A DNA stretch of 64,000 nt from an uncultured Ignavibacteria bacterium. GTDB taxonomy: Bacteria; Zixibacteria; MSB-5A5; SM1-73. Shown in pieces: positions 23,819 to 43,294 of the stretch. Below the pieces are notes generated by a model. The model did no database searches. It was not told where the DNA came from and saw nothing but the letters and a program-made list of their open reading frames with translations. Each line of letters opens with the position of its first letter. Position 1 is the stretch's first letter. The DNA lies in the NCBI GenBank assembly GCA_964580215.1, contig CAZOJT010000013.1, forward strand, positions 1,268 through 65,267. Reading direction: 5' to 3'. A program made the position numbers and the translations under genes.

Positions 23819-24301
23819 TTGAACTCCAAAATGTTTTCCTTCATTCAAGCAAGACAGACCCAGCGTTTTGTAAAATTCGGACTGGTCGGAACCTGGGGAT
23901 TTCTGGTTAATATGTTTTTCTTGTGGTTTCTGACCGAGAAAGTAGGGGTTTATTATCTTTTCTCCAGCATCGTGGCAATTGAGATATCGCTTTTAAATAA
24001 CTACGTGCTGAACGATCTGTGGACCTGGCATGATCGGGGAAAAGAGGGAAAAAAAGAATACTTCAAAAGAATGCTTCAGTACCATGTTTCTGCCAGCGCC
24101 GCCACGATGACGAATCTCGTGGTTTTATGGATTTTGACTGAGCTTTTCGACATATATTATTTGGCTTCCAACATCTTTGGTATTTTGTGCGGTACCCTGT
24201 TAAACTTCTTTATCAATGACCGCTGGACCTTCAAACACAAAAAGGAATTGTCAGCGGAATCTTTAGAAATGCCAAATGGCGGGCATGCCCGACAAGATTA
24301 G
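23819..24301 (+). CDS. GtrA-family membrane protein (polyprenyl-phosphate-sugar flippase-like)
   Basis: 160 aa with four TM helices and an N-terminus (FVKFGLVGTWGFLVN) typical of GtrA. Confidence 0.55.
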   Translation: MNSKMFSFIQARQTQRFVKFGLVGTWGFLVNMFFLWFLTEKVGVYYLFSSIVAIEISLLNNYVLNDLWTWHDRGKEGKKEYFKRMLQYHVSASAATMTNLVVLWILTELFDIYYLASNIFGILCGTLLNFFINDRWTFKHKKELSAESLEMPNGGHARQD

Positions 24302-24315
24302 CGTTTAGGCGGGAT

Positions 24316-24356
24316 ATGCGTATGCTCGTATGAGTGCATACGCACATTCATACGAA
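24316..24356. repeat. Nested palindromic repeat (family gcgtatgc-tcgtatgagt-gcatacgc…cattcatacgaa)
   Basis: The sequence atgcgtatgctcgtatgagtgcatacgcacattcatacgaa has at least 12 related copies in the window. Confidence 0.8.
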
Positions 24357-24470
24357 AATTCCCGTCTCTATGGGAGGATTATCTTCTCACCCATAGGGCA
24401 GGGCATTCAGCCCTGCCACAAGATTCTCGGTCGTTCATTAATTACGGGTTAGGCTAAAACCTAACACTCC

Positions 24471-25697
24471 ATGCTTTCTGTTTTCTTAATGCGAATATCT
24501 GAACTGAAGAAAAAAGACTATTTCAGGATAGCCTTATATGTGATTCTTATAATCGTCATGCTCGGCTTTTTTCGGAATACCCTGCGAAAAGGTATGAGCG
24601 ACTTCAAGGTGGTTCATCGTGCCGCCACAAGAGTCCTAAATCAGGAAAACCTTTATAATTTTGATGATGGTCATTATCTTTATAAATATTCGCCCTCTTT
24701 CGCTGTCATGGTCGCTCCGCTGGGGCTTCTTCCTCTCTTTCCAGCCCAGATAGTATGGCTTGCTGGAATGTGCATTTGTCTGTTCTTTATCATGAAGTGG
24801 AGCAAAAAGATGATTTTGGGGGATAAATCACCTCCCCCCTATTTATACCTTCTGACCTTGCTTTTCACCTCGAAATTCATAGTGCGGGAGTTTTGGCTGG
24901 GACAGACAGACTTTTTGATGCTTCTTTTCATCTTCCTGTTTATTTTGTCCACTGATCGAGGAAAAGAATTAAAAGCGGGGGGCTTTCTTGCCTTATCGGT
25001 CATGATTAAACCTACCCCTCTGATCCTTGTGCCATACCTTTTGTATAGGAAAAAATTCAAACTGATCGGCTATCTCGCCATAACGTGTGCTGTCTTTCTT
25101 TTTGTTCCTTTATTCGTTTATGGAATTCCCGACAGTCTGAATCTGCTTTCTGGTTGGAAAACCGTCTTGTCGGCTTCATCTCCCCCACTTTTGGCTGCGG
25201 ATGTTAATCAGTCTTTGTTCGGCTTCTTTTATCGCTTTCTGACACCCGCTCCTTTTCAGGTCAACATCCTGAATCTGAATTATACCGTGGTAAATTTACT
25301 AATATATGCCACGGCAGTAGGTTTGTTTCTATTTCTTCTTTTCTTAAACCAAAGATTGAAATTTGTGGAAAACAGTTTCGTGCATCGGCGAGAATGTATA
25401 GAATACTCACTTCTTCTAATTTTTATGACGCTTTTTTCACCTCTGGGTTGGTTTCAAAATTATTCCTCATCCATTCTGGCTTACATGCTTCTTCTATATT
25501 ATGTTTTAAAGACCGGACTTGAAAATCGTTTTGTCTTTATACTACTGATGCTATCCTTCCTTCTGGTAGATGCTATCAATTTCGAGACTGTGGGACGAAA
25601 GATTAACGATCTCTCTTTGTATTTCTCCTTCATCACTTTCGGGATCTTCCTGGTGATAATTTGCCTTTCTAAATTAAGGCTATCCAAAATTGCTTAA
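24471..25697 (+). CDS. Polytopic membrane protein, possible GT-C-type glycosyltransferase (DUF2029/GT87-like)
   Basis: 408 aa with about 10-12 TM helices and short loops. It lies in a glycosylation gene context. No catalytic motif was verified. Confidence 0.3.
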   Translation: MLSVFLMRISELKKKDYFRIALYVILIIVMLGFFRNTLRKGMSDFKVVHRAATRVLNQENLYNFDDGHYLYKYSPSFAVMVAPLGLLPLFPAQIVWLAGMCICLFFIMKWSKKMILGDKSPPPYLYLLTLLFTSKFIVREFWLGQTDFLMLLFIFLFILSTDRGKELKAGGFLALSVMIKPTPLILVPYLLYRKKFKLIGYLAITCAVFLFVPLFVYGIPDSLNLLSGWKTVLSASSPPLLAADVNQSLFGFFYRFLTPAPFQVNILNLNYTVVNLLIYATAVGLFLFLLFLNQRLKFVENSFVHRRECIEYSLLLIFMTLFSPLGWFQNYSSSILAYMLLLYYVLKTGLENRFVFILLMLSFLLVDAINFETVGRKINDLSLYFSFITFGIFLVIICLSKLRLSKIA

Positions 25698-25863
25698 GAC
25701 CTATTTGAGTATACATTTATGAATCCCCTGGCTGGTAGGAACCATAGTGTTCATATCAGCCCAAAAGCAAACCAGGTTTTGTTTTTCTTTACAGAAGACT
25801 TACCTCTCTGCCGATAATAAAACCAGTTGCCAGTCAATAGTCATAAGTCACCAGTAATTCGTC

Positions 25864-27285
25864 ATGCGTTATCAGTCATTCGTGATTGAATTAGGGGGGA
25901 ATATGGACAAGGCTAAGATCTTGGTGGTTGACGATGAGGAGTCGATGTGCAAGTTCATGGAGATCATGCTGAAAAAGGAGGGCTATCAGGTCATCACCAG
26001 CCAGGATGCCTCCACCGCATTAGAGCGAGTCAAAAGTGAAACCTATGATCTGGTGATTGCCGATCTGATGATGCCGAAGATGAGCGGACTGGAGCTTCTC
26101 TCCCAGGCCAAATCCATCAATCCGGATCTTGACTTTATCGTGATGACCGCATTTGCCTCCGTGGACTCCGCCATTGAAGCATTAAAAAAAGGTGCTTTTG
26201 ACTATATAACCAAGCCCTTCCGGGTGGATGAGATAAAGATCGCGGTAAGGAAATCTTTAGAACAAAAAAAGATCGTTCGGGAAAATATTAAACTGAAGAA
26301 GGAACTTCAGACCAAATCCGATTTCGATTCTTTTATCGGTAATAGTCTGGAAATAACCAAGCTGAAAAAGATGTCGGAGAGGATCGCCAGATCCGATTCG
26401 ACCGTTTTGATCGAAGGTGAATCGGGCACCGGCAAGGAGCTGATCGCCAGAGCCATCCATTACCACAGCCCCAGATCGGACAAACCCTTCGTCACCATAA
26501 ACTGTGCCGCCCTTCCGGAAAACCTTCTGGAAAGTGAGTTGTTTGGACATGTGAAAGGATCATTCACCGGAGCCATCAAGGACAAGGAGGGACTGTTCAA
26601 AGTGGCGGACGGTGGAACGTTCTTTTTAGACGAGGTGGGAATGACCTCGCCCGCAATTCAGGCAAAACTATTGAGAGTTCTGGAGGAGAAAGAGATGACC
26701 CCGGTGGGAGGCACCGCTCCCATCAAAGTGGACGTGCGCTTAATCGCCGCCACCAATGCCGATTTAGAGCAAGAGGTGAAATCAGGAAACTTCAGGGCAG
26801 ATCTTTATTATCGCCTGCATGTTATACCCATAAGGATTCCTCCTCTGCGCCAAAGAAAGGACGACATCAAGCTTCTTTCCGCCTATTTTGTCAGAAAATA
26901 CTGTCAGAAGATGCAAATAGAGGAAAAGAACATCACCGATGAGGCTATGAACCGATTGCTCTCCAACAAATGGCCCGGCAATGTGAGAGAGCTGGAAAAC
27001 GCCCTCGAACACGCGGTTTTGCTGTCCAAAAGTAATCAGATAACCACAGAAGACCTTCCTCAAAAGATAAAAGAGGAGAAGGAGATTGACTTGGTCACAG
27101 AAGCGCAGCCAACTGCTCCTGCACTGGAAATCATAGAAAAAGCTTATATCTTCTGGGTGTTGAATCAGACCGGTTGGCAGAAAAGCAAAGCCTCTTCAGT
27201 TCTGGGGATAGACTCATCCACCTTATATAGAAAGATAGAGAAGTATAAATTAAAATCACCCGCCTCCTCTGTTGGTGAACTCTAA
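25864..27285 (+). CDS. Sigma54-dependent NtrC-family response regulator (receiver-AAA+-Fis HTH)
   Basis: Receiver domain (ILVVDDEE…D), an AAA+ domain with GESGTGKELIARAIH and GSFTGA (GAFTGA variant), and a C-terminal HTH. The true start is likely the ATG at 25903 (MDKAKILVVDD), which has an upstream GGGGGG RBS. Confidence 0.85.
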   Translation: MRYQSFVIELGGNMDKAKILVVDDEESMCKFMEIMLKKEGYQVITSQDASTALERVKSETYDLVIADLMMPKMSGLELLSQAKSINPDLDFIVMTAFASVDSAIEALKKGAFDYITKPFRVDEIKIAVRKSLEQKKIVRENIKLKKELQTKSDFDSFIGNSLEITKLKKMSERIARSDSTVLIEGESGTGKELIARAIHYHSPRSDKPFVTINCAALPENLLESELFGHVKGSFTGAIKDKEGLFKVADGGTFFLDEVGMTSPAIQAKLLRVLEEKEMTPVGGTAPIKVDVRLIAATNADLEQEVKSGNFRADLYYRLHVIPIRIPPLRQRKDDIKLLSAYFVRKYCQKMQIEEKNITDEAMNRLLSNKWPGNVRELENALEHAVLLSKSNQITTEDLPQKIKEEKEIDLVTEAQPTAPALEIIEKAYIFWVLNQTGWQKSKASSVLGIDSSTLYRKIEKYKLKSPASSVGEL

Positions 27286-27310
27286 CAAAAGAAGCTTCAA
27301 AAGAAAAGAT

Positions 27311-27470
27311 ATTTTGTCTTTGTAGTTGCCCAATTCATTGGGCTTTATGAGGCTCGATCCTTCGACAGGCTCAGGATGCCATAAATCGAGCGACTACAGT
27401 TTCGTAGTTGCCCGATTCATTGGGCTTTATGTAGCTCGATAAATCGAGCAACTACAATTTTTATGCGCTA
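27311..27470. repeat. Two tandem copies of the repeat family gtagttgcc-(c/t)gattcattgggctttatg…gcaactaca
   Basis: Related copies occur at 37990-38105 and 44795-44865. They have inverted termini attgtagttgc…gcaactacaat. Confidence 0.7.
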
Positions 27471-27484
27471 TTGATATTTGCCCG

Positions 27485-29452
27485 ATGGGAAAAAATTCAA
27501 ACCAGACAAAATACTCCGAGCAAAGGAAGAAGAGACTATTTACGACTGAAAATGCGCTTTGTGCTTCCGTGTTCCTCTTCTTCTTTGCAGTTTACACCAT
27601 AACATTGTGTCCCACCGTTTTCTGGTGGGACTCAGGGGAGTTGATTGCCAACATCGCGGTCTTGGGAATACCCCATCGCCCCAGCTTTCCCATTTACGTG
27701 CTTTTAGGTAAACTTTTCTCCTTTCTCCCCTTCTGGAGTTTTGCCTTAAAGGTGAATTTTCTCTCCGGCCTCTTTGCTTCTTTTTCACTGGCAATCTTTT
27801 GTAAGATTTTTCTCAAGAGTGCTAACCTGTTTTTCCCGGAAATGGCTAAAAAGAGGGGATTGGTTCTGGCTTCAGGTTTCTTTTTTCTTTTAGTTTTTGG
27901 GTTTACCTATTCGTTCTGGATTCAGGCGGTAAGGGCAGAAGTTTATTCTTTGAATGTTCTTTTCTTTTCCCTGCTTTTGTTTTCAAGCATTTTATACCTT
28001 AAGGATGGAAAGCTGAAATATATCTATCTTTTTTTCTTCCTTTTAGGATTGGGTCTGGGAAATCATCATCTTAGTTTATTATCATCCACTCCCGCTTTGT
28101 TCTTCCTTCTCTTGTGTTCATCCGCTCACAATGAATCCGTCATTCGTCATTCGTCATTCGTCATAAATCTCAAAAGATCTCTTTTATGCACTTTACTTTT
28201 CTTATTCGGTTTAAGCATCTATCTTTATCTTCCCATCCGCTCCCTATCCCAACCAACCTTAGCTTGGGGTGAGGTCAAATCCATTTCCTCGTCTGCAAAT
28301 TCCATCTTTGCCCTCGACACCATTAAGAATCTGAATCTGGAGTTTTTGTCAGATATTACTACCACGATGTCACAGATACTTTTACTTATCTCTGATCAAC
28401 TCACTCTCTTATGTTTCACCATCAGCCTTCTGGGGCTTTTTCTACTTTTCAGGCATAACCGCAAGCTTTTGACTTTTCTACTATTGTTGATAGGAGGCAA
28501 CTGTGCGGTGGTGATATTTATGACCACGGAGTTTATATCCACCAATCCCGATCTACATGGCTATTTAATTTTCTCCATCTTCGCTCTGGCTTTCTCTTAT
28601 GGTATAGGTGTCTTCTTTATATTAAATAATATTCGTCATTCGTCATGGTTCGACTTTGCTCACCACAAGTCCGCCATCCGTCATCTTTTTTTGATCGTTT
28701 TTGGAGCGATTTCCCTCATTCCTATGTTTAAACACTATCCGGAGGCGAATCTATCCAACAATCGGATTGCCCATAATTACGGCTTGAGTGTTATCTCCGA
28801 TCTGGATTCTAACTCGGTCGTTTTCGCGGACAACGTCAATTTGAATTTCATCTTGAGGGAACTTCGCTATGCAGAAGGACTAAGAAAAGATGTAACCGTT
28901 CTTGATCGTGGTCTTTTGAGCTTTAACTGGTATGTGACACAAAAAAGAAATGAGCAAAAAGTCCTCTTCTCAGGTATTCCGGGGAGCTTAATTGGTGAGC
29001 CTCTGTTTGAAGCGCTTCTAAAAAGATGCCAAGATTCAGAGAAGCCCACATATATCGAATTCACTGAAAGGGATTCAAATCTGGTGAACCATCTCATTCC
29101 CAGAGGATATGTTTTTAAAATAAGCAAGACACGAATTGGTCAACTTTCGGAAAGGGTTCTACTATCTCAGAAAAGATGGGAACATGATGGTCCCTTCGAT
29201 CCACAGGATGAGGTGTTTCAAAGAGACTGGGATACTAAAAGGGTGTTTGCTCTTTCTTTTTATCGATTAGGGCTTTTCTATGAATGGAAGGGGATGACCT
29301 CCTTTGCTCTGGAAAAATTCGCACAGGTCAGAAAGATCGACCCGGGAAATAAGGAACTCATCCTGAAGATCGAGCATTTGGAGACGATAAAGAGATTATC
29401 GGAGAGTTCTGAGGCGGGTTCTTTTCCATCTCCAGGAAAACCTCTTAGATGA
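27485..29452 (+). CDS. DUF2723/PMT-like (TMEM260-type) GT-C glycosyltransferase with a C-terminal TPR domain, copy 1
   Basis: The first loop carries WWDSGE (the DxE/DSGE acceptor motif of PMT/ArnT-like GT-C enzymes). About 11 TM helices follow. A large C-terminal soluble region has TPR-like repeats. There is a paralog at 31111-33126. Confidence 0.55.
   Translation: MGKNSNQTKYSEQRKKRLFTTENALCASVFLFFFAVYTITLCPTVFWWDSGELIANIAVLGIPHRPSFPIYVLLGKLFSFLPFWSFALKVNFLSGLFASFSLAIFCKIFLKSANLFFPEMAKKRGLVLASGFFFLLVFGFTYSFWIQAVRAEVYSLNVLFFSLLLFSSILYLKDGKLKYIYLFFFLLGLGLGNHHLSLLSSTPALFFLLLCSSAHNESVIRHSSFVINLKRSLLCTLLFLFGLSIYLYLPIRSLSQPTLAWGEVKSISSSANSIFALDTIKNLNLEFLSDITTTMSQILLLISDQLTLLCFTISLLGLFLLFRHNRKLLTFLLLLIGGNCAVVIFMTTEFISTNPDLHGYLIFSIFALAFSYGIGVFFILNNIRHSSWFDFAHHKSAIRHLFLIVFGAISLIPMFKHYPEANLSNNRIAHNYGLSVISDLDSNSVVFADNVNLNFILRELRYAEGLRKDVTVLDRGLLSFNWYVTQKRNEQKVLFSGIPGSLIGEPLFEALLKRCQDSEKPTYIEFTERDSNLVNHLIPRGYVFKISKTRIGQLSERVLLSQKRWEHDGPFDPQDEVFQRDWDTKRVFALSFYRLGLFYEWKGMTSFALEKFAQVRKIDPGNKELILKIEHLETIKRLSESSEAGSFPSPGKPLR
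28137..28164 (+). repeat. Heptanucleotide tandem repeat (cgtcatt)x4 inside the DUF2723 CDS
   Basis: The sequence ccgtcattcgtcattcgtcattcgtcat was read directly. A second 2-copy tract (attcgtcattcgtcat) lies at 28631-28646. Confidence 0.8.
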
Positions 29453-29629
29453 ACTCTTTCTTGAGTCGTAGAATTAAGCAAAAAAGGGGGGGGGGACGGT
29501 GATTGCATTTTGCAAGGATTCAGGTAAAAACCTCGATACACAAACATCTGCTCAAAAACCGATCCAACTCTTTCCTCCTGTCCGAAAACACCTTAGTGAT
29601 TATAGTTCAGGATTGCATGATTTTTGTAG

Positions 29630-30094
29630 TTGTTAAACTTAAAGAGACCATTTATGAGATCAAAAAAGCATTGGCGGAATAAAGGCTTTACTTTGATCGA
29701 GCTGATGATCGTGGTAGTCATCATCGCCATCCTGGCGGCGATGGCTATTCCCCGTTTCATGCGTACTTCGGTGAAAACCAAGCAGACCGAGGCAAGACTA
29801 ATCTTGAAGCAGATTTATACCATGGAAAGAGCTTACCGGCAGGAAAAGGACAGCTACTACCCGGGTGACGGAAGCACCATTGTTGCTCAACCTGGAGGAG
29901 CCTTCGCTGCTTTATATGTGGAGATCATGACTCCGGCTTATTATAGTTACTCAATTTCCGGAGACGCCTCATCCTTTTCAGCCACCGCTGGGTCCAAAAG
30001 CGCCACCGGGCTGGATGGTGACCCTACTTTAGATGTCTGGACCATAGACCAAACCGGTAATCTGACCTGCGTCACTGATGACTCTGAAGACTGA
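29630..30094 (+). CDS. Type IV pilin / pseudopilin (prepilin-type N-terminal cleavage/methylation domain), copy 1
   Basis: Contains …NKGFTLIELMIVVVIIAILAAMAIPRF, which is the G/FTLIE class III signal plus a hydrophobic helix. The true start is probably MRSKKHWRNKG at ~29654. Confidence 0.75.
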   Translation: MLNLKRPFMRSKKHWRNKGFTLIELMIVVVIIAILAAMAIPRFMRTSVKTKQTEARLILKQIYTMERAYRQEKDSYYPGDGSTIVAQPGGAFAALYVEIMTPAYYSYSISGDASSFSATAGSKSATGLDGDPTLDVWTIDQTGNLTCVTDDSED

Positions 30095-30246: not shown

Positions 30247-30262
30247 TGGCACAGCTTTTGCT
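30247..30262 (+). promoter_or_regulatory. Sigma54 (RpoN) promoter, TGGCAC-N5-TTGCT
   Basis: tggcacagcttttgct is a perfect match to the -24/-12 consensus (GG and GC spaced 10 nt). It lies ~80 bp upstream of the second pilin start. Confidence 0.65.
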
Positions 30263-30339: not shown

Positions 30340-30771
30340 ATGTTGAGCAAATTTCACAGAAGTCAGAAGGGTTTCACCTTGATCGAGTTGATGATCGTGG
30401 TGGTCATCATCGGAATTTTGGCCGCACTGGCCATCCCACGATTCATGCGAGCGACCACCAAGTCCAAGCAGTCTGAGGCAAAGCAGGTCTTGAAGCAGAT
30501 CTACGCCATGGAGAGAGCTTATCGTCAGGAGTATAATGCCTACTGGGGTAACGGTATCAAAGCCTCAGCCGTCGCCGCCCAACAGGATAACTTCGGCCGC
30601 ATCGGTGTGGACATCATGTCCACCGCTCGTTACACTTACACCATCGTTGCGGCTGCGAACACCTTTACCGTAACCGCCACCTCAGGCATCCTGGACGATG
30701 ATGCCAAGGTGGATACCTGGACCATCAACGACGCAGGTCTTCTGTCCTGCACCAGCGATGACGCGCTCTAA
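30340..30771 (+). CDS. Type IV pilin (PilA-like), copy 2
   Basis: MLSKFHRSQKGFTLIELMIVVVIIGILAALAIPRF is the prepilin leader plus N-methyl-Phe helix. A variable C-terminal domain ends with a Cys pair (…CTSDDAL). Confidence 0.75.
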   Translation: MLSKFHRSQKGFTLIELMIVVVIIGILAALAIPRFMRATTKSKQSEAKQVLKQIYAMERAYRQEYNAYWGNGIKASAVAAQQDNFGRIGVDIMSTARYTYTIVAAANTFTVTATSGILDDDAKVDTWTINDAGLLSCTSDDAL

Positions 30772-30796
30772 GGGTTTAACTTCTTGTCTGACTAAA

Positions 30797-30833
30797 GGGG
30801 ACTCAAGGGTTTGAGTCCCCTTTTTTGTTTTTT
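30797..30833 (+). terminator. Rho-independent terminator after the pilin genes
   Basis: ggggactcaagggtttgagtcccc forms a stem, followed by tttttt gtttttt. Confidence 0.75.
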
Positions 30834-31100: not shown

Positions 31101-31110
31101 CTACTAACCT

Positions 31111-35994: not shown

Positions 35995-36984
35995 TTGAAG
36001 ATAAAAGGTAAAAAGGTTTTGGTCACCGGAGCGGGTGGATTTGTGGGAAGCCATCTAGTGGAGGCGCTGGTGAAAAGAAACGCCCGAGTAAGGGCTTTTG
36101 TCCATTACAATTCCCGAAATGACTGGGGAATGCTGGAGGATGTGGCAAAAAATATACTGAATGAGGTTAAAGTGGTGACTGGGGATTTAAAAGATGCAGA
36201 CTGTGTCAGAGAAGCTGTCCGTGGTCAACAGGTGATATTTCATCTGGGAGCTTTAATCGGAATCCCTTATTCCTACGTAAACCCCAGAGACGTGGTCGAT
36301 ACCAACATAAATGGCACCCTTAATGTTCTGACCGCAGCACTTGATTTTGGCACGGAAAAAGTAGTCCACACCTCCACCAGCGAGATCTACGGCACGGCTC
36401 AATATGTTCCCATGGATGAGAAACACCCGGTAAATCCTCAATCACCTTATGCCGCCAGCAAGTTGGGAGCAGATCTTTTAGCGTTAAGCTTTCACCGCTC
36501 CTTTGATCTGCCAGTGGGGATAATCAGACCTTTCAACATCTATGGTCCCAGACAATCCGCCCGGGCAGTGATCCCGTCCATTATCACCCAGGTTCTGCTT
36601 AAAAAGAAAATCGCCTTAGGCTCTGTTTATCCCACCCGAGATTTGACTTTTGTGAAGGACTCGGTGAACGGATTCATCGACTTTGCCGAATGCGAAAAAA
36701 CAGTGGGTGAGGTGGTGAACTTAGGATCGGGTTTTGAGGTGTCGATAAATCAAATAATCAACCTTATTTTAGATTGTCTGGGAAAGAGAATCCAGTTTCA
36801 AAGAGAAAAGAAAAGGATTCGACCTGAAAAAAGTGAGGTGGAAAGGCTTTTTTCAGATTCCAGCAAAGCCAAAAGACTTTTTGGATGGCAACCCAAAACA
36901 AATCTCAAGCGGGGAATAGAGAAGACCATAAGTTGGTATGAAAAGAATCTAAGAAGATACAAAGCGGATATTTACAATATTTAA
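35995..36984 (+). CDS. NAD-dependent nucleotide-sugar epimerase/dehydratase (extended SDR)
   Basis: VLVTGAGGFVGSHLVEAL (GxxGxxG) and YAASK (YxxxK) are present. A TTG start at 35995 is preceded by an AGGAGA RBS. Confidence 0.8.
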   Translation: MKIKGKKVLVTGAGGFVGSHLVEALVKRNARVRAFVHYNSRNDWGMLEDVAKNILNEVKVVTGDLKDADCVREAVRGQQVIFHLGALIGIPYSYVNPRDVVDTNINGTLNVLTAALDFGTEKVVHTSTSEIYGTAQYVPMDEKHPVNPQSPYAASKLGADLLALSFHRSFDLPVGIIRPFNIYGPRQSARAVIPSIITQVLLKKKIALGSVYPTRDLTFVKDSVNGFIDFAECEKTVGEVVNLGSGFEVSINQIINLILDCLGKRIQFQREKKRIRPEKSEVERLFSDSSKAKRLFGWQPKTNLKRGIEKTISWYEKNLRRYKADIYNI

Positions 36985-37212: not shown

Positions 37213-37923
37213 ATGAAGGTGATTATCTTAGCCGGTGGTAAAGGCAGACGGCTTTATCCTTATACTGTGGTTTTGCCCAAGCCACTTATGCCCATCGGTG
37301 ATTTCCCCATCCTGGAGGTGATCTTAAGGCAACTTAAAAAATGCAATCTTGTCGACATCACTCTGGCCGTAGGTCATCTGGGCAATTTGATTCAAACCTA
37401 TTTCGGTGATGGGTCCAAATGGGGGGTAAACATTGAATATAGCTTCGAGGAAGAACCTCTGGGCACAGTTGGTCCCTTGACCTGTTTGAACAATTTGGAT
37501 CAAACGTTTATGGTGATGAACGGCGATCTACTCACCACGTTGAATTATCTTGATTTAGTTGAATATCACAAAAAACAGAATGCGATCGCCACAGTGGCAT
37601 CACAGAAAAGATGGGTGGATGTCGACTTCGGCGTGATCCAAAAAGATAAAGATGAGAGCATGGTCAAATACATAGAAAAGCCCAGGCTATCTTATCTGGT
37701 GAGTATGGGAATTTACGTGTTTGAGCCGGAGATAATCGACTTCATCCCCCGGGGCGAAAAATTTGATTTCCCCGATCTGATGCAACTTCTTCTGCAAAAG
37801 GAAAAAAAGGTGGGGATATATGAATCTTTTGATTTCTGGCTGGATATAGGAAGACCGGACGACTATCAAAAAGCTGTGGAGGAATTTGAGAAAAACAGAA
37901 ATAAATTTCTGAACGAAGAATAA
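37213..37923 (+). CDS. Sugar-1-phosphate nucleotidyltransferase (RfbF/glucose-1-P cytidylyltransferase-like)
   Basis: Contains MKVIILAGGKGRRLYPYT, the G-rich NTP-transferase signature. Length is ~236 aa. Confidence 0.7.
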   Translation: MKVIILAGGKGRRLYPYTVVLPKPLMPIGDFPILEVILRQLKKCNLVDITLAVGHLGNLIQTYFGDGSKWGVNIEYSFEEEPLGTVGPLTCLNNLDQTFMVMNGDLLTTLNYLDLVEYHKKQNAIATVASQKRWVDVDFGVIQKDKDESMVKYIEKPRLSYLVSMGIYVFEPEIIDFIPRGEKFDFPDLMQLLLQKEKKVGIYESFDFWLDIGRPDDYQKAVEEFEKNRNKFLNEE

Positions 37924-38126
37924 AAAAATAACAAATTTGACTGTATCGCAGTCCTATTAAAACGCTAACGAAAACATATCGAGCATGAAGACAAGCTCTA
38001 AGCTCCTCTGAGAATGTAGTTGCTCGATTTATCGGGCCCAATCACCGCCTTTGTCCCGCCTCCGGCGGGATAAAAGCGGTATGAATTGGGCAACTACAAT
38101 TTCTTACCAAAGATCAAAGATAAAAA

Positions 38127-39275
38127 ATGAAATGGAAAGTTACTTTATCTGATCTGAATTTCGACCAGCGTGAGCGAAAGATGGTTGATAGGGTGATAAG
38201 AAGCAAGTGGCTCACCATGGGCGAAACTGTCGAAAGGCTGGAGAAAGAGTTCGCCGAATTTATAGGGACCAAACATGCCATCGCAGTCTCCAGTGGCACG
38301 GCGGCTTTGCATCTGGCTATGAGAGTTCTAAACATCAAATCAAATGACGAGGTCATCGTTCCATCATTAAGTTTTGTTGCCTCCTCCAATGCCATCCTGT
38401 ATGTGGGAGCAAAGCCTGTGTTCGTGGATATAAGCTCACGAAATGATTTCAACCTATCCTGTGAAGATTTAGAGAGGAAGATCACTCCCAAAACCCGGGC
38501 GATAGTGGTGGTTCACTACGGCGGGTATCTGGCGGACATGGACGAAATTGAAAGAATCGCCAGAAAACACCGGCTTTTCATCATCGAAGATTCAGCCCAT
38601 GCCATAGGAGCAGACCTAAATTCAAAGATGGCTGGCACACTTGGGGACGTGGGTTGTTTCTCTTTTTTCTCCAACAAGAATCTGGCAACCGGTGAGGGAG
38701 GAATGATCGTAACCGACAACGATCGGCTTGCAAAAAGACTCAAACTTCTCAGGTCTCATGGAATGACCAGCATGACCCTGAACAGACACAAAGGTCATGC
38801 TTATTCATACGACGTGGTGGAGCTGGGATATAATTATCGAATGACCGAGATATCTGCCGCACTTGGTATATTGCAGTTAAAGAAATTATCTCAGGCTAAT
38901 AAAAAAAGAAAGATCTTAACAAATATTTATGTGTCGAATTTAGAAAAGGCCGAAGGTCTTTCCATCCCGTTCAAGGATTATCCACGCAACTCCTCCTATC
39001 ATCTTTTTCCCATCCTTCTGAACAAAAAGACAAACAGGAAAAAATTTATGGAGCTTTTGAAAAAAGAAGGAATCCAGTCCAGCATACATTACCCGCCCAT
39101 TCATAAGTTTTCCTTCTATCGAAGAAATCTAAAGGGAAATCAGACAAAGCTCCCCTTAACAGAATATGTGGGGGCACATGAGTTAACCCTTCCCCTACAT
39201 CCTCTGCTTGAAAAGGAAAACGTTGTTTTTGTCTGTGAGAAAATAAAAAAGATTCTCCCCAAAACTTTAAGATGA
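38127..39275 (+). CDS. DegT/DnrJ/EryC1/StrS-family PLP-dependent sugar aminotransferase
   Basis: DSAHAIGA and a PLP lysine in FSFFSNKNLATGEGG are present, consistent with the fold-type I AAT family. Confidence 0.8.
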   Translation: MKWKVTLSDLNFDQRERKMVDRVIRSKWLTMGETVERLEKEFAEFIGTKHAIAVSSGTAALHLAMRVLNIKSNDEVIVPSLSFVASSNAILYVGAKPVFVDISSRNDFNLSCEDLERKITPKTRAIVVVHYGGYLADMDEIERIARKHRLFIIEDSAHAIGADLNSKMAGTLGDVGCFSFFSNKNLATGEGGMIVTDNDRLAKRLKLLRSHGMTSMTLNRHKGHAYSYDVVELGYNYRMTEISAALGILQLKKLSQANKKRKILTNIYVSNLEKAEGLSIPFKDYPRNSSYHLFPILLNKKTNRKKFMELLKKEGIQSSIHYPPIHKFSFYRRNLKGNQTKLPLTEYVGAHELTLPLHPLLEKENVVFVCEKIKKILPKTLR

Positions 39276-40288
39276 ATTTGATCGTCTTAGAAGAGCCAAA
39301 TGACAAGTGGGATGAGTTTGTTTGCTTACATTCGAACCTGATCTTCCATACCTCCTTATGGTGGAAAGTCTTGAAAGAAAGCTATGGATGCGGTATGCAA
39401 TATTTGGTATTCGAAGATGGAGGAAAATGGCTTTCTGCTCTGCCTGGAATGATGGTGGGCAACCGATTCTTTAAGGTGTTCTATTCTCTAATCCCATACG
39501 GGGGGTTTATCGGAGATCGAGAGCACATCCCTGAATTCTTAAGCTTTTTGAACAGTTGGGCGAGGAAGGAGAAAATTCAACGCATTCAGATCGTGGATGT
39601 AGACATTAAGAAAAAGCAAGATCTGCCCGATTTTAACTGTGTGGAGTCATATCGGCATCTGTTGGAGTTGAGAGACAAAACCACAGATCAGATCTGGAAA
39701 AATTATAAAGATAGTCTGAAAAGGAACATAAAGACCGCTTTGAAATCGGATCTTTATTTTGAAAAGATAAAATCGCGGGAAGAGGTGGATCTATTTTATC
39801 GTCTCTATCTGGATTCGATGAGAAGGAACAAAGCTTTGGTTAAATATCCGATCCAGCTTTTCTTAAAGATTTATGATCTTTTGGTTCCCAAATTTTCCGA
39901 TATGTTTTTTATGAAATACCGCAACCAGCCAGTAGCAGGGATGGTGGTAATTTATTCTGACGCCGCCGCTCATTATTTCCATGGCGGATCGGCTACCGAA
40001 TACCTACATTTAAGACCCAACGATCTTTTATTTCATCATGCCATCCAGATCGCCAAAGAGAAAGGAAAATCATATTTCGATTTCTTTGGTTCAGACAAGA
40101 AACTTTTATCTCTGATTCAGTTTAAGGATAAGTGGGGAACAAAAAGAGAGGAGCTTTTGAACTTTCATAAGGATATAGGTGTAGTTCGACCTCTTCTCTT
40201 CAAAATCGTTTTAAGATTGGCGCAAACTTCCGTTGGATCTGCGGTTCATAGAGGACTGAAATCGCTGCATAAGGGGAGCAGAGCATGA
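39272..40288 (+). CDS. FemAB-like / GNAT-fold acyltransferase (probable amino-sugar N-acyl or aminoacyl transferase)
   Basis: 338 aa with a composition resembling the FemAB / Acetyltransf_6 family seen in O-antigen clusters. Its start overlaps the aminotransferase gene. No motif was verified. Confidence 0.35.
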   Translation: MNLIVLEEPNDKWDEFVCLHSNLIFHTSLWWKVLKESYGCGMQYLVFEDGGKWLSALPGMMVGNRFFKVFYSLIPYGGFIGDREHIPEFLSFLNSWARKEKIQRIQIVDVDIKKKQDLPDFNCVESYRHLLELRDKTTDQIWKNYKDSLKRNIKTALKSDLYFEKIKSREEVDLFYRLYLDSMRRNKALVKYPIQLFLKIYDLLVPKFSDMFFMKYRNQPVAGMVVIYSDAAAHYFHGGSATEYLHLRPNDLLFHHAIQIAKEKGKSYFDFFGSDKKLLSLIQFKDKWGTKREELLNFHKDIGVVRPLLFKIVLRLAQTSVGSAVHRGLKSLHKGSRA

Positions 40289-41319
40289 AGACCAGTTTTC
40301 GGAAACGAATCTTTTCAGCCGATGCTCAGAGTGATGAACCTTCGCTTTCCGAAAAAAGCGAGATTGGTCGCATCTCGGAGCGGAAAGGAAAACCTGCTTT
40401 TCTGAAAAAGATTGTTGCCTTTTTAGTAATTCTCACCTGCTTCTTTTTTCTGGGGAAAACCCTTTATCACAACCTGGGACAGATAAGGGCTTATCAGTGG
40501 GACTTAAAACCATCCTTTCTTATCCTTTCATTTCTTTTCCTGGTGATCAATTTAGCCATCTCCGCTTTTGCCTGGAAAAAGATCCTCTATTTGTTTGAAG
40601 TCCGGTTACCTTTTAATCAGAGCTTCAAGATAATGTTCGTCTCCGGGTTAGGAAAATATCTTCCTGGAAAAGTCTGGCAATACCTCAGCCAGATATATTT
40701 ATCCGGGAAGGTAAAAATCTCTAAAAGCGTTACCCTCTTCAGCATGTTTTTGCTGTTTGGGGGTTATACTTTAGCCGGGATGCTGGTCTTTATTTTCTCA
40801 CTTTTCCTGTGGGATATGTTTTCGCCGGTCCTGCTCTCTTTCCTTCTTTTAATATTTTTCTTCATCTTTATGATCATTTTCTCTCCCCGAATCTTAAACC
40901 GCATATTGAAAGTTTTGACCCTTATCTCTGAAAAATTCAAGAAAGGACTAATTCCGGAAGAGTTGACCACCCGTGGTGGAATAAGTCAGATAGGTCAGAT
41001 CATCTTGATTTTGATGGCGGACTGGATAATCTTTGGAGTAGCGGTTTATTTTTTGATCAATTCTTTTTATCATATCGACCTTTCTCAGACAGTGATATTA
41101 TGTGGCATTTTCGCCATCTCGGTGATATCGGGAATTTTAAGTTTTTTCGTTCCAGCGGGATTGGGAGTCAGAGAAGGAATTTTAAGTTATCTGTTAAGCT
41201 TGTTTATACCTATCTCCGCCGCCATCTTGATTTCTCTGGTTATGAGAGTGTGGATGATTTTGGGAGAGTTGGCTTGTTTTTTTGTTGCCTTGAAGATCAA
41301 AAAGCCAGAATTGTGGTAA
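40285..41319 (+). CDS. Flippase-like polytopic membrane protein (lysylphosphatidylglycerol-synthase TM-region family)
   Basis: 344 aa with about 8 TM helices and a short cytoplasmic N-terminus. It is translationally coupled to the upstream gene. Confidence 0.4.
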   Translation: MKTSFRKRIFSADAQSDEPSLSEKSEIGRISERKGKPAFLKKIVAFLVILTCFFFLGKTLYHNLGQIRAYQWDLKPSFLILSFLFLVINLAISAFAWKKILYLFEVRLPFNQSFKIMFVSGLGKYLPGKVWQYLSQIYLSGKVKISKSVTLFSMFLLFGGYTLAGMLVFIFSLFLWDMFSPVLLSFLLLIFFFIFMIIFSPRILNRILKVLTLISEKFKKGLIPEELTTRGGISQIGQIILILMADWIIFGVAVYFLINSFYHIDLSQTVILCGIFAISVISGILSFFVPAGLGVREGILSYLLSLFIPISAAILISLVMRVWMILGELACFFVALKIKKPELW

Positions 41320-41396
41320 AGCATATTCAGACAAAATCTACACCGCGTAGCGGAGCCTTCATGGCTCCGCATCCAGCTTTTTAAAATGGTGAAAAA

Positions 41397-42137
41397 ATGA
41401 AGACTCAACAGTTACAGCATTTCCAGACCGACGGTGAAACCTGGCAAAAACGAGCAGCGAAAGGGAAACTTCCTGCGGTTATTGACCCCGGCGATCTGAA
41501 GGGAAGAAAAAATCTTTATATTGACACCCTACAAAAGATGGCAGTCCAGAAAGCACTGGGAAAAGAAAAAAGAAAGTTCATCCTTGATTTTGGCTGTGGA
41601 AGCGGAAGATTTTCAGACCTTTTAGCTGAAAGGTGTGAATTTCTGATGGGGATGGAAATAACCCACCAGATGCTTCTTCTGGCAAAAGATGAAAGCCAAT
41701 GTTCCAACACCGGTTTTGCCCTTTTTGATGGAATGAACTTTCCCCTAAAAGAGGGGAAGGTGGATACGGTGATCTCTGTGAACGTGCTCCAATACATCAC
41801 CAAGGATTCCGAGTTGAATAAAGTGCTCTCCCAGGTGCAGAAAAGTCTAAAGCCCGGAGGCAAATTTATTGACATAGAGCAGGTAACCAGAAACAAAAAA
41901 AGATGGCAGAGGGACTTGAAAACGTATTTACGCTTCTTTGAACAGAATGATCTCAGAAAAGTTGCCGATTATCCTATAAGGAAAGGTCATTTTCTGTTCC
42001 TTTACCCGATCTACTTCGGTTTAATCCCGAAGAAGTGGTTTAAAACAATGGCAAGACTTGAGATGTTTTTAAGAAAAATCTTGTGGCAGTCGTTCTGGGA
42101 TTATCAGGATCATTTCTTTGAGATGGAAAAAATATGA
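41397..42137 (+). CDS. Class I SAM-dependent methyltransferase
   Basis: Motif I LDFGCGSGRFSDLL and motif II VISVNVLQYI are present. Confidence 0.6.
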   Translation: MKTQQLQHFQTDGETWQKRAAKGKLPAVIDPGDLKGRKNLYIDTLQKMAVQKALGKEKRKFILDFGCGSGRFSDLLAERCEFLMGMEITHQMLLLAKDESQCSNTGFALFDGMNFPLKEGKVDTVISVNVLQYITKDSELNKVLSQVQKSLKPGGKFIDIEQVTRNKKRWQRDLKTYLRFFEQNDLRKVADYPIRKGHFLFLYPIYFGLIPKKWFKTMARLEMFLRKILWQSFWDYQDHFFEMEKI

Positions 42138-42520
42138 TTTGCCCAGAATTAGTAAACTCGTTTAACGTTGGCGAAGCTTGTATCGAAGCTCGAAAATCGA
42201 GGCTGGAGAAATGCGGATTAAAGAAGGATTTTTTCAAACATCGAGCTTCAATTGACCACAGGGTGAACGAGAACTCCAATTGTGTCATTCTGAACGGAGC
42301 CCTTCGGCACTTGTCACCCTGAGCGAAGCCTTGCCTAAGGCGGGCGAAGCGAAGGGTCTGGATTGCCTCAGGGTAAACTCCGCGGAGTGAAGAATCTTAG
42401 TTTTATGCGGGTTGGGAAGCGAGATTCTTCCCCACATGGGTCAGAATGACAATTCTCAGTCATCCTGCCCAGATTCGATACCAACCTCGAAAACGATAAC
42501 CGAGAAACAAAGCAATTTCG

Positions 42521-43294
42521 ATGAGCACAATAATTCTGATTTTGACAATATTGATAGGCTTAGCCCTGGGTAGTTTTTTAAACGTTTGCATCTACAGGAT
42601 TCCCCAGAAAAAATCCATACTTTTCCCCGGCTCGTTCTGTCCCAGGTGTAGAGCAAAGATTCGCTCCTACGACAACATCCCCCTTTTAAGCTACATCATC
42701 TTAAAGGGAAGATGCAGAAATTGCAAAGAGAAAATCTCTTTGCAATATCCCCTGGTGGAGTTTGTCACCTCCGCTTTGCTGGTTTTAGCCTATCTGCGCT
42801 TTGGGTTGACCTGGGATTTTGTGGCGAGAAGCATATTGATTCTCTTTATGATTTTGACCTTCTTTATCGACTTGAAGCACAGGATTATCCCGGATGTGCT
42901 CACCTTCCCCGGTATCATCCTCGGCTTCCTTTTATCCTTTGTGGTCAAATCCCCGTCTATTTTGAATTCGCTTCTGGGGATTCTGGTGGGCGGTGGAATG
43001 TTTTATCTGGCTGCTATTTTAGGAGAGCTCCTTTTTAAAAAAGAGAGCTTGGGGGGAGGAGATATAAAGCTGGCTATGATGCTGGGAGCATTTTTAGGAT
43101 GGCAGAAGATACTTTTGGTGCTTCTGCTTTCCGCTTTCTTAGGCAGTCTAATCGGTGGCGTAGCTTTATTCTTCTCAAAGGATGTAAAAGAGACCCGAAC
43201 CATCCCCTTCGGTCCCTTCTTGGCTTTGGGGACAGTAATCGCCATGTTTGCAGGCGACGCTATAATTTCCGCATACTTAAAAACTTTCTTTTAG
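42521..43294 (+). CDS. pilD: Type IV prepilin peptidase (A24 family)
   Basis: A CPRC…CRNC tetra-Cys zinc motif is in the first cytoplasmic loop. The polytopic membrane core has conserved Asp residues, consistent with A24 family peptidases. Confidence 0.8.
   Translation: MSTIILILTILIGLALGSFLNVCIYRIPQKKSILFPGSFCPRCRAKIRSYDNIPLLSYIILKGRCRNCKEKISLQYPLVEFVTSALLVLAYLRFGLTWDFVARSILILFMILTFFIDLKHRIIPDVLTFPGIILGFLLSFVVKSPSILNSLLGILVGGGMFYLAAILGELLFKKESLGGGDIKLAMMLGAFLGWQKILLVLLLSAFLGSLIGGVALFFSKDVKETRTIPFGPFLALGTVIAMFAGDAIISAYLKTFF

What the first reader, a model, noticed from the sequence alone, without database searches (positions are those of the whole stretch)
23819..43294. Candidate type IV pilin O-glycosylation locus: tandem pilins bracketed by two TPR-containing PMT/TMEM260-like GT-C glycosyltransferases
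Two pilA-like genes (29630-30094, 30340-30771) sit between two paralogous DUF2723 proteins (27485-29452, 31111-33126). The first-loop DSGE/EDS motif and polytopic GT-C architecture of these proteins match protein O-mannosyltransferases (PMT/TMEM260). The C-terminal TPR domains would suit protein-substrate recognition.

The full lipid-linked sugar supply chain is in the same locus. It includes a GtrA flippase, a Dpm1/GtrB-like GT2, a GT4, a nucleotide-sugar epimerase, a sugar-1-P nucleotidyltransferase, a DegT aminotransferase, a FemAB-like acyltransferase, a flippase-like membrane protein and a SAM methyltransferase. PilD and a sigma54 activator are also present.

Known pilin glycosylation uses OTase (PglL/PilO) or TfpW/arabinosyltransferase enzymes. 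A PMT/TMEM260-type enzyme dedicated to pilins would be undescribed.
Basis: partly seen in the sequence, partly recalled or inferred. Interest (0 to 1): 0.78.

Follow-up and report, generated by a model that had tools for sequence, protein, structure and literature searches.

The report
Pilin genes flanked by TMEM260-like glycosyltransferases
In this Zixibacteria genome, two type IV pilin genes sit between two membrane glycosyltransferases of the human TMEM260 family, inside a sugar-supply gene cluster, and the arrangement recurs in several phyla, so these enzymes probably attach sugars to pilins, which would be the first function proposed for the bacterial branch of this family.

Summary
Window 23819-43294 is one same-strand cluster:
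- GtrA
- a sigma54 response regulator
- a TMEM260-like GT-C (GT117a)
- two type IV pilins
- a second TMEM260-like GT-C with TPR (GT117b)
- a membrane-anchored GT2 and a GT4
- a nucleotide-sugar pathway: nucleotidyltransferase, LegB-like 4,6-dehydratase, PseC/LegC/ArnB-like aminotransferase, FemAB-like transferase, methyltransferase
- a flippase-like protein
- PilD

Both GT-C proteins match Pfam PF11028. A family profile matches the solved human TMEM260 at E=3e-63. GT117b keeps the equivalents of D52, H67, E144, R264 and D441. GT117a keeps the first three only.

Synteny is strongly conserved. Of 61 related GT117 genes with enough flanking DNA, 45 have a pilin within 2.5 kb, and all 92 pilins are on the same strand. 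The linked genes fall in three deep clades, sit next to two unrelated pilin families, and occur in Zixibacteria, Abyssobacteria and Poribacteria. A Lindowbacteria contig shows the upstream half of the same arrangement.

Best reading: a pilin-dedicated periplasmic O-glycosylation system that uses polyprenyl-phosphate sugars. This is inferred, not shown.

The closest precedent is Pseudomonas TfpW (GT-C plus TPR, encoded next to pilA). I could not obtain its sequence, so homology is untested. I rate the finding a new variant of a known kind.

The parts
23819..24301 (+). GtrA-family small membrane protein, the putative flippase for polyprenyl-phosphate sugar
   Evidence: PF04138 GtrA_DPMS_TM, E=2e-29. 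A GtrA-GT87 pair precedes the regulator in many Zixibacteria loci.
24471..25697 (+). GT87-family GT-C glycosyltransferase, a polytopic enzyme that depends on polyprenyl-phosphate sugar. Candidate for a second, periplasmic glycan-extension step.
   Evidence: PF09594 GT87, E=6e-23. Weak NCBIfam match to a mannosyltransferase. Conserved upstream of the regulator in relatives.
25864..27285 (+). Sigma54-dependent response regulator in the PilR position
   Evidence: Response_reg + Sigma54_activat + AAA_lid_14 + HTH_8. It precedes the GT117/pilin block in nearly all related loci. In Lindowbacteria it follows a PilS-type kinase and precedes PilC.
27485..29452 (+). GT117a: TMEM260-like GT-C glycosyltransferase, the divergent paralogue
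   Evidence: PF11028 at 104.8 bits. phmmer against solved TMEM260 9rql_A gives E=2.9e-25 over residues 28-487. The AF2 model has pLDDT 86.5 and shows a GT-C TM domain, an alpha/beta domain and a helical C-terminal bundle. It keeps the D52/H67/E144 equivalents but has Ala at the R264 position and its Asp lies two residues before the D441 position.
29492..29507 (+). Possible sigma54 promoter upstream of pilin 1 (GGGGACggtgaTTGCA). The -24 GG lies in a G10 tract.
   Evidence: Two mismatches to TGGCAC-N5-TTGCW. The same position in L001 reads TGGATGgaagcTTGCA. This is weak evidence on its own.
29630..30094 (+). Type IV prepilin 1 (mature part begins FTLIELMIVV..., about 135 aa)
   Evidence: N_methyl, E=7e-10. 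NCBIfam PilA (Myxo) N-terminal match and IV_pilin_GFxxxE. Orthologues occupy the same position in relatives.
30247..30262 (+). Sigma54 promoter consensus TGGCACagcttTTGCT, 78 bp upstream of pilin 2
   Evidence: The only zero-mismatch match in the 64 kb window. The strict motif is found upstream of 7 of 86 related pilins, against 10 of 3371 background windows.
30340..30771 (+). Type IV prepilin 2 (mature about 132 aa), probably the major pilin
   Evidence: N_methyl, E=7e-11, plus ComP_DUS. Perfect sigma54 promoter upstream and the strongest terminator of the region downstream.
30794..30833 (+). Intrinsic terminator after pilin 2 (13-bp perfect stem followed by a T run)
   Evidence: Top-ranked terminator-like site in 23600-43500. 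Perfect inverted repeat.
31111..33126 (+). GT117b: TMEM260-like GT-C glycosyltransferase with a C-terminal TPR. Likely true start is 31159.
   Evidence: PF11028 at 110 bits plus TPR_1/2/8. Profile A1 against 9rql_A gives E=2.9e-63. The D52, H67, E144, R264 and D441 equivalents are D39, H54, E138, R265 and D447. The AF2 model has pLDDT 87.4. Foldseek returns the GT-C enzymes PglB, AglB, ArnT, AftA, DPY19, ALG12 and Pmt4.
33305..34384 (+). GT2 polyprenyl-phosphate glycosyltransferase (GtrB/ArnC/Dpm1-like) with hydrophobic C-terminal helices
   Evidence: PF00535. Best NCBIfam matches are PgfS, AglJ and ArnC, full length but below their cut-offs. It lies immediately downstream of GT117b in almost all relatives.
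34489..35682 (+). GT4 cytoplasmic glycosyltransferase. Its role is unclear.
   Evidence: Glycos_transf_1. TuaC/EpsE-like. The GT2-GT4 pair is conserved in Zixibacteria.
35995..36984 (+). NDP-sugar 4,6-dehydratase (LegB-like)
   Evidence: TIGR04180 LegB at 457.5 bits (cut-off 475); dTDP-glucose dehydratase at 174 bits.
37213..37923 (+). Sugar-1-phosphate nucleotidyltransferase
   Evidence: PF00483, E=6e-41.
38127..39275 (+). PLP-dependent sugar aminotransferase (PseC/ArnB/LegC-like)
   Evidence: DegT_DnrJ_EryC1, E=1e-124. PseC at 371 bits, ArnB at 305 and LegC at 281, all below their cut-offs.
39272..40288 (+). FemAB/GNAT-like acyl or aminoacyl transferase, possibly N-acylating the amino sugar
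   Evidence: FemAB E=7e-20 and Acetyltransf_6 E=2e-13. TIGR03019 at 82.7 bits, below its cut-off. It overlaps the aminotransferase gene by 4 bp.
40285..41319 (+). LPG_synthase_TM (MprF flippase-domain-like) membrane protein, a possible second lipid-sugar flippase
   Evidence: PF03706, E=2e-17.
41397..42137 (+). SAM-dependent methyltransferase
   Evidence: Methyltransf_11/25.
42521..43294 (+). Prepilin peptidase/N-methylase PilD
   Evidence: A24_N_bact E=2e-35 and Peptidase_A24 E=3e-23. It closes the cluster in many relatives.

Best explanation
This is a type IV pilin gene cluster with a built-in periplasmic O-glycosylation system of the 'three-component' kind: a lipid-phosphate sugar synthase, a flippase and a GT-C transferase.

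Proposed sequence of events:
1. The PilR-like sigma54 activator switches on the pilin genes. A sigma54 promoter is seen in the sequence; the regulation itself is inferred.
2. PilD processes the prepilins. This follows from family assignment.
3. In the cytoplasm, the nucleotidyltransferase, the LegB-like 4,6-dehydratase and the PseC/LegC-like aminotransferase make an NDP-4-amino-4,6-dideoxy sugar. The FemAB-like enzyme and the methyltransferase may then decorate it. The sugar identity is inferred only from family matches that fall below their cut-offs.
4. The membrane-anchored GT2 loads a monosaccharide onto polyprenyl phosphate.
5. GtrA and/or the MprF-like protein flips the loaded lipid to the periplasmic face.
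6. At that face the two TMEM260-like GT-C enzymes (CAZy GT117) transfer the sugar to Ser/Thr of the membrane-anchored pilins. By analogy with solved TMEM260, their C-terminal helical/TPR 'fingers' would hold an extended stretch of the acceptor.
7. GT87 may add a further sugar.

GT117b has the full TMEM260 residue set and is the likely catalyst. GT117a is divergent. It may be specialised for another donor or site, or act as a partner.

Shown here: gene content, family membership, residue conservation and conserved synteny. Inferred: the acceptor, the sugar and the order of steps.
For: Family and fold:
- Both proteins match PF11028.
- The family profile matches solved human TMEM260 in one stretch covering the TM and luminal domains, at E=2.9e-63.
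- AF2 models show a GT-C TM domain, an alpha/beta domain and a helical TPR-like end, with pLDDT 87 and 86.5.
- Foldseek returns only GT-C enzymes as full-length matches.

Residues:
- Equivalents of TMEM260 D52, H67 and E144 are invariant in 23 sequences.
- The R264 and D441 equivalents are conserved in the GT117b clade.
- The roles of these residues come from bioRxiv 10.64898/2026.03.17.711096.

Synteny:
- Among 73 genome loci, 45 of 61 GT117 genes with at least 2.5 kb on both sides have a pilin within 2.5 kb.
- All 92 pilins are on the same strand as the GT117 gene.
- Pilin-linked genes form at least three deep clades sharing about 25-30% identity.
- The neighbouring pilins belong to two families with unrelated globular parts.
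- In Abyssobacteria the order is pilR-pilC-epimerase-acetyltransferase-GT2-GT117x3-pilin-pilin.
- In Lindowbacteria it is T2SSE ATPase-pilS-pilR-pilC-epimerase-acetyltransferase-GT2-GT117, after which the contig ends.
- In the window the sugar genes lie between the pilins and pilD.

Donor side:
- GtrA is present.
- The GT2 matches the polyprenyl-phosphate glycosyltransferases PgfS, AglJ and ArnC over its full length.

Precedent: TfpW has the same architecture and gene position, and needs a GtrA-like flippase.
Against: - No direct evidence exists that these pilins are modified.
- The pilins have no Ser/Thr-rich tract. S+T content is 15-19%, and only a few Ser/Thr columns are conserved.
- GT117a lacks the R264 equivalent, and its Asp is displaced relative to D441.
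- A strong terminator and about 330 bp separate pilin 2 from GT117b, so co-transcription is not assured.
- Other GT117 clades are not near pilins, including Planctomycetota, Acidobacteriota, Myxococcota and Chloroflexi. The family as a whole is therefore not pilin-specific.
- GT4 has no obvious role in this model.
- Most surveyed loci come from one phylum, so the counts overstate the number of independent observations.
Confidence: 0.6

Rival explanations
1. The GT117 enzymes glycosylate something other than the major pilins. Candidates are minor pilins or other pilus-machine proteins, many periplasmic or surface proteins, or an S-layer protein. On this view they sit beside the pilin genes only because surface structures are co-regulated by the same sigma54 activator.
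For: - Human TMEM260 is a protein O-mannosyltransferase whose clients share a fold, not a sequence motif.
- Many GT117 clades are not pilin-linked.
- A terminator separates pilin 2 from GT117b.
Against: - Adjacency to pilin genes persists across three deep GT117 clades and two unrelated pilin families. No other candidate acceptor gene is conserved in these clusters.
- In Abyssobacteria the GT117 genes lie between pilC and the pilins, and in Lindowbacteria they follow pilC directly.
Confidence: 0.2
2. The GT-C enzymes modify a non-protein acceptor such as lipid A, LPS, a capsule or an exopolysaccharide, in the manner of ArnT or GtrC. The cluster would then be a surface-polysaccharide modification locus that happens to be fused to a pilin cluster.
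For: - The aminotransferase, GT2 and GT-C combination resembles ArnB/ArnC/ArnT. ArnB scores 305 bits and ArnC 94.5 bits, both below their cut-offs.
- GT4, the FemAB-like protein (closest to an XrtA/PEP-CTERM-associated model) and GT87 are typical of polysaccharide loci.
Against: - The enzymes belong to the TMEM260 family. They share its luminal domain and the D441-type Asp that activates a protein hydroxyl.
- They carry TPR-like fingers, which in TMEM260 bind a peptide.
- No Wzx, Wzy, Wzz, ABC-exporter or ligase gene is present in the cluster.
- Synteny is conserved with pilins, not with polysaccharide genes.
Confidence: 0.12
3. GT117a, and possibly both proteins, are non-catalytic. They would act as TPR-bearing chaperones or assembly factors for pilins, and the sugar genes would serve another pathway.
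For: - GT117a lacks two of the five TMEM260 functional residues at the aligned positions.
- JGI names some relatives 'PilF' or 'TadD' because of their TPRs.
Against: - The W-x-D-S, G-I-P-H and R-A-E-V-Y motifs are invariant in both clades.
- GT117b keeps all five residues.
- A dedicated GT2 and GtrA are conserved beside the GT117 genes.
Confidence: 0.05

Closest known systems
TfpW of Pseudomonas aeruginosa/paraeruginosa group IV strains (pilin D-arabinofuranosyltransferase)
   Same: - The gene lies beside the major pilin gene.
[quoted passage not shown]
- The donor is a polyprenyl-phosphate monosaccharide made in the cytoplasm, and a GtrA-like flippase is required.
- The pilin accessory genes of P. 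aeruginosa are described as regulated through the expression level set by pilA.
   Different: - The sugar pathway is different. There is no PRPP/DprE1/DprE2 arabinose route. Instead there is a GT2 synthase plus a 4-amino-4,6-dideoxy sugar pathway.
- TfpW's YX6PFX7P motif is absent from all 90 GT117 homologues examined.
- Here there are two or three paralogous transferases and two or more pilins per locus.
- Sequence homology to TfpW could not be tested because its sequence was not obtainable with these tools.
Human TMEM260 (CAZy GT117), protein O-mannosyltransferase for IPT domains of cMET, RON and plexins
   Same: - Same Pfam family.
- The profile match at E=3e-63 spans the GT-C domain and the luminal domain.
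- The D52, H67, E144, R264 and D441 equivalents are conserved in GT117b.
- Same three-part architecture.
   Different: - The window proteins are bacterial and would act in the periplasm rather than the ER.
- The presumed acceptor is a type IV pilin, not an IPT domain.
- The sugar is unknown and may not be mannose.
- The R355 and Y267 equivalents are not conserved.
PglL/TfpO/PilO O-oligosaccharyltransferases
   Same: They glycosylate type IV pilins in the periplasm. tfpO also lies directly downstream of pilA.
   Different: - They transfer preassembled undecaprenyl-diphosphate oligosaccharides and belong to the Wzy_C/O-antigen-ligase-like family.
- No protein in this locus matches that family.
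- No initiating phosphoglycosyltransferase is present.
Three-component periplasmic glycosylation systems (GtrABC; ArnB/C/T; Streptococcus Pgf; actinobacterial Pmt with PimE)
   Same: - GtrA-like flippase, GtrB/ArnC/PgfS-like GT2 and GT-C transferase(s).
- The pairing of GT87 with a protein O-glycosyltransferase recalls Pmt/PimE in mycobacteria. This last point rests on my own knowledge and was not checked here.
   Different: Those systems modify O antigen, lipid A or Gram-positive adhesins and secreted proteins. None uses a GT117 enzyme or is embedded in a pilin cluster.

Membership tests
GT117 / TMEM260-like (Pfam PF11028) | Significant match to the family's N-terminal GT-C model | tested here: met
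   104.8 and 110 bits against a cut-off of 24.2. NCBI names relatives 'DUF2723 domain-containing' or 'glycosyltransferase family 117 protein'.
GT117 / TMEM260-like (Pfam PF11028) | Homology to solved TMEM260 across both the TM and luminal domains | tested here: met
   Profile A1 against 9rql_A: E=2.9e-63, profile positions 16-496 to chain residues 28-498. Single sequences give E=1.6e-19 and 2.9e-25.
GT117 / TMEM260-like (Pfam PF11028) | Donor-side residues D52, H67 and the E144 loop | tested here: met
   W-x-D-S, G-I-P-H and R-A-E-V-Y are invariant in 23 sequences, including both window proteins.
GT117 / TMEM260-like (Pfam PF11028) | Phosphate-binding R264 and catalytic base D441 | tested here: inconclusive
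   GT117b has R265 and D447 at the aligned positions. GT117a has Ala at the R264 position, and its Asp (D449) lies two residues before the D441 position.
GT117 / TMEM260-like (Pfam PF11028) | Architecture: GT-C wrist, Rossmann-like palm and a five-helix TPR finger domain | tested here: met
   AF2 models of both proteins show TM helices to about residue 420, beta-alpha-beta elements at about 440-545 and 4-6 C-terminal helices. Pfam TPR hits are found only in GT117b. Direct superposition on 9rql was not possible because the entry was not among the Foldseek matches.
GT117 / TMEM260-like (Pfam PF11028) | Transfers mannose from a polyprenyl/dolichyl phosphate donor to protein Ser/Thr | not testable with these tools
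   This needs biochemistry. The donor-supply genes (GT2, GtrA) are present.
TfpW-type pilin glycosyltransferase | Gene adjacent to the major pilin gene | tested here: met
TfpW-type pilin glycosylation | About 11 TM helices in a GT-C fold, a periplasmic C-terminal TPR and an acidic first-loop motif | tested here: met
TfpW-type pilin glycosyltransferase | Proline-rich YX6PFX7P motif in periplasmic loop 4 | tested here: not met
   Found in 0 of 90 GT117 homologues, including both window proteins.
TfpW-type pilin glycosyltransferase | Sequence homology to TfpW (AAM52060.1) | not testable with these tools
   The TfpW sequence could not be obtained.
PglL/TfpO O-oligosaccharyltransferase | Wzy_C / O-antigen-ligase-like domain | tested here: not met
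   No such Pfam hit for any of the 16 proteins of the locus.
PMT (GT39) protein O-mannosyltransferase | PMT, MIR and PMT_4TMC domains | tested here: not met
   No PMT or MIR hits in the window proteins. Pmt4 and Pmt1-Pmt2 appear only as distant fold matches.
Three-component periplasmic glycosylation system | Polyprenyl-phosphate sugar synthase (GT2 with a membrane anchor), small flippase and GT-C transferase in one locus | tested here: met
   GT2 matches PgfS, AglJ and ArnC. GtrA, and three GT-C proteins (GT87, GT117a, GT117b), are present.

The most novel reading that the evidence does not exclude
Bacterial GT117 (TMEM260-like, formerly DUF2723) enzymes are dedicated type IV pilin O-glycosyltransferases. 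They would form a further class of pilin glycosylation machinery, distinct in sequence from PglL/TfpO and possibly from TfpW. They would use paralogous transferases for different pilins or sites, and a lipid-phosphate amino-deoxy sugar as donor. This would give the first function for the prokaryotic branch of the family that gave rise to the human disease gene TMEM260.
Probability: 0.45. Interest if true: 0.75.

Novelty: new variant of a known kind. Interest (0 to 1): 0.6.

Why it matters
The family related to these proteins is very large. A profile search found 9,645 clusters at 50% identity with E<=1e-30. I found no paper in the searchable library that assigns a function to any bacterial member.

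A conserved genetic link to pilins supplies a concrete, testable substrate. It connects the newly solved human O-mannosyltransferase TMEM260 to a bacterial setting where donor, flippase, enzyme and acceptor are encoded side by side. It also extends pilin glycosylation, which in Pseudomonas protects against pilus-specific phages, to uncultured phyla.

The multi-paralogue, multi-pilin layouts suggest diversification of the pilus surface. Up to six tandem pilins occur in L012.

Tried and rejected
1. I tried to decide whether TfpW belongs to PF11028.
   - The 2008 TfpW paper is not held.
   - The preprint and later papers give no sequence or Pfam assignment.
   - The afdb50 fold library is not installed.
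   - A plasmid tblastn gave only one weak, irrelevant hit.
   - The only available proxy, TfpW's YX6PFX7P motif, is absent here.
2. The Foldseek PDB search did not return the TMEM260 entry, although its sequence is in the sequence copy. The structural comparison therefore rests on sequence alignment plus secondary structure.
3. An Rfam scan of 23000-44500 found nothing.
4. The sigma54 promoter is a perfect match upstream of pilin 2. The strict motif is found in only 7 of 86 related pilin upstream regions, so regulation is supported but not general.
5. I looked for a Ser/Thr-rich acceptor tract in the pilins and found none, only scattered conserved Ser/Thr columns.
6. Chance adjacency and a PglL-type mechanism were considered and rejected.

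Full report
**What is in the window**

Window 23819-43294 is an uninterrupted run of 16 same-strand genes. It is bounded upstream by an Eco57I-like restriction-modification fusion (20367-23732) and downstream by a transposase remnant (43543-44157). The rest of the window holds housekeeping genes and no other pilus genes. The organism is a member of Zixibacteria. The closest genome locus, L001, comes from 'Zixibacteria bacterium SM23_73_3', where the relative of GT117b is 79% identical.

Pfam assigns the genes as follows:
- GtrA
- GT87
- a response regulator with a sigma54 AAA+ domain and HTH_8
- PF11028 TMEM260-like (27485-29452, here GT117a)
- two prepilins with the N-methylation motif
- PF11028 TMEM260-like plus TPR (31111-33126, here GT117b)
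- GT2
- GT4
- an SDR epimerase/dehydratase
- a sugar-phosphate nucleotidyltransferase
- a DegT aminotransferase
- a FemAB/Acetyltransf_6 protein
- an LPG_synthase_TM protein
- a methyltransferase
- the prepilin peptidase

It missed GT87, a third GT-C enzyme. Pfam finds TPR in only one of the two TMEM260-like proteins.

**Are the two GT-C proteins really TMEM260-like and plausibly active?**

A profile of 23 homologues (A1) matches the sequence of the solved human TMEM260 (9rql) at E=2.9e-63. The match is one stretch covering profile positions 16-496. Each window protein alone also matches, at E=1.6e-19 and 2.9e-25.

The 2026 structure paper defines the functional residues: D52 and H67 for donor binding, an E144 loop, R264 and Y267 for phosphate and sugar, R355, and D441 as the base in a luminal Rossmann-like domain. 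It also describes TPR 'fingers' that hold an extended acceptor peptide.

- On alignment, D52, H67 and E144 correspond to the invariant W-x-D-S, G-I-P-H and R-A-E-V-Y motifs of both window proteins.
- GT117b also has R265 and D447 at the R264 and D441 positions.
- GT117a has Ala at the R264 position, and its Asp lies two residues earlier in the same strand-loop-helix element.
- AF2 models of both proteins (pLDDT 87.4 and 86.5) show the same three parts: a GT-C transmembrane domain, an alpha/beta domain and a C-terminal helical bundle.
- Foldseek finds PglB, AglB, ArnT, AftA, DPY19, ALG12 and Pmt4.

GT117b therefore looks fully competent. GT117a is a conserved but divergent paralogue.

**Is the pilin adjacency more than chance?**

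A scan of one genome per species returned 73 loci, which I annotated with the window's proteins.

- The order regulator-GT117a-pilin(s)-GT117b-GT2-GT4 recurs throughout Zixibacteria, often followed by the same sugar genes and pilD.
- Of 61 GT117 genes with at least 2.5 kb on both sides, 45 have a pilin within 2.5 kb. All 92 pilins are on the GT117 strand.
- A neighbour-joining tree places the pilin-linked genes in at least three deep clades (GT117a, GT117b and an Abyssobacteria/Poribacteria group), interleaved with unlinked clades.
- In Abyssobacteria SURF_17 the order is pilR-pilC-epimerase-hexapeptide transferase-GT2-three GT117-two pilins.
- In Lindowbacteria it is T2SSE ATPase-pilS-pilR-pilC-epimerase-acetyltransferase-GT2-GT117, where the contig ends.
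- The pilins of that group have a different globular part from the Zixibacteria pilins. The link is therefore between GT117 and pilins in general, not one inherited gene pair.
- GT117 genes from Planctomycetota and Acidobacteriota have no pilin neighbour. The association is specific to certain clades.

**Regulatory signals**

The only perfect sigma54 promoter consensus in the window (TGGCACagcttTTGCT, 30247-30262) lies 78 bp upstream of pilin 2. The strongest terminator of the region follows pilin 2. A weaker sigma54-like site precedes pilin 1. Among relatives, the strict motif occurs upstream of 7 of 86 pilins, against 10 of 3371 background windows.

**Sugar supply**

The GT2 has hydrophobic C-terminal helices. 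It matches the polyprenyl-phosphate glycosyltransferases PgfS, AglJ and ArnC over its full length, below their equivalog cut-offs. With GtrA and GT-C enzymes, this forms the classic three-component periplasmic glycosylation layout.

The dehydratase scores 457 bits on the LegB model, whose cut-off is 475. The aminotransferase is closest to PseC, ArnB and LegC. Together with the nucleotidyltransferase, these point to an NDP-4-amino-4,6-dideoxy sugar. The FemAB-like enzyme, whose gene overlaps the aminotransferase gene by 4 bp, and the methyltransferase could modify that sugar.

Which sugar the GT2 loads is unknown. So is whether GT87 extends the glycan and what GT4 does.

**Comparison with what is known**

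The closest functional precedent is TfpW. It is 646 aa with 11 TM helices in a GT-C fold, a DDX motif in loop 1 and a periplasmic TPR domain. It is encoded directly after pilA, uses a lipid-phosphate sugar and depends on a GtrA-like flippase. That is the same design.

I could not obtain the TfpW sequence, so homology is untested. Its YX6PFX7P motif is absent from all 90 GT117 homologues here.

PglL/TfpO-type enzymes are excluded because no Wzy_C-like domain is present. GT39 PMTs are excluded because there are no PMT or MIR domains.

No paper in the library links TMEM260/DUF2723/GT117 to pilins or assigns any bacterial function. The only paper combining pilin, GT-C and tetratricopeptide is the TfpW preprint.

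**Verdict**

Family membership, catalytic motif and conserved synteny all hold. Pilin glycosylation itself remains inferred, GT117a is divergent, and the novelty claim is narrower than stated because of TfpW.

I rate it a new variant of a known kind: pilin-adjacent GT-C/TPR glycosyltransferases with a three-component sugar supply, here built on the TMEM260 family.

It matters because the family is very large, with 9,645 clusters at E<=1e-30, and has no characterised bacterial member. This locus offers donor, flippase, enzyme and acceptor in one testable unit.

Noticed in passing
window 29481-29496: A G10 homopolymer overlaps the -24 element of the weak sigma54-like promoter upstream of pilin 1. 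The closest genome (L001 8320-8345) has no G tract there. This could be phase variation of pilin 1 expression or an assembly artefact.
   Followed up: partly
L012 6088-9731; L009 8044-9865; L028 3715-6234: The number of tandem pilin genes next to the GT117 genes varies from two to six (six in L012). This suggests pilin gene amplification or diversification within the glycosylation cassette.
   Followed up: no
L009 and L041 (both from chromosome CP070839): In one complete Zixibacteria chromosome the cluster is split. GT87-regulator-GT117a lies without pilins at one site. A GT117a fragment, three pilins and GT117b lie about 1 Mb away.
   Followed up: no
window 31111-33126 (protein P0001): The public gene call for the identical protein is 586 aa. 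It starts about 70-85 codons too late, which removes TM1 and the W-x-D-S catalytic loop. Other homologues support a start at 31159.
   Followed up: partly
window 30840-31110: The 330-bp spacer between the pilin 2 terminator and GT117b contains several short GC-rich hairpin-like palindromes, for example cccccgccaacggcggggg and gtcccgcctttggcgggac. No Rfam family matches. I did not check whether they are repeated elements.
   Followed up: partly
window 20367-23732; L039 4151-7639: A 1121-aa Eco57I/MmeI-like restriction-modification fusion lies directly upstream of GtrA. A homologue sits in the same place in L039.
   Followed up: no
window 43543-44157 and 46576-47058: Transposase remnants (DUF772 and an IS200-like Y1 transposase) lie just downstream of pilD, at the edge of the cluster.
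   Followed up: no
window 4788-6305 and 58721-63343: A BNR-repeat protein carries a type IX secretion C-terminal sorting domain. A separate 1540-aa protein has DUF7901 and dockerin domains. Both are large surface or secreted proteins unrelated to the finding.
   Followed up: no
proteins P0001-P0120: Most relatives carry a precomputed Pfam domain, PF28495.1, that is absent from the local Pfam copy. It may be a newly defined domain of this family and could not be identified.
   Followed up: no
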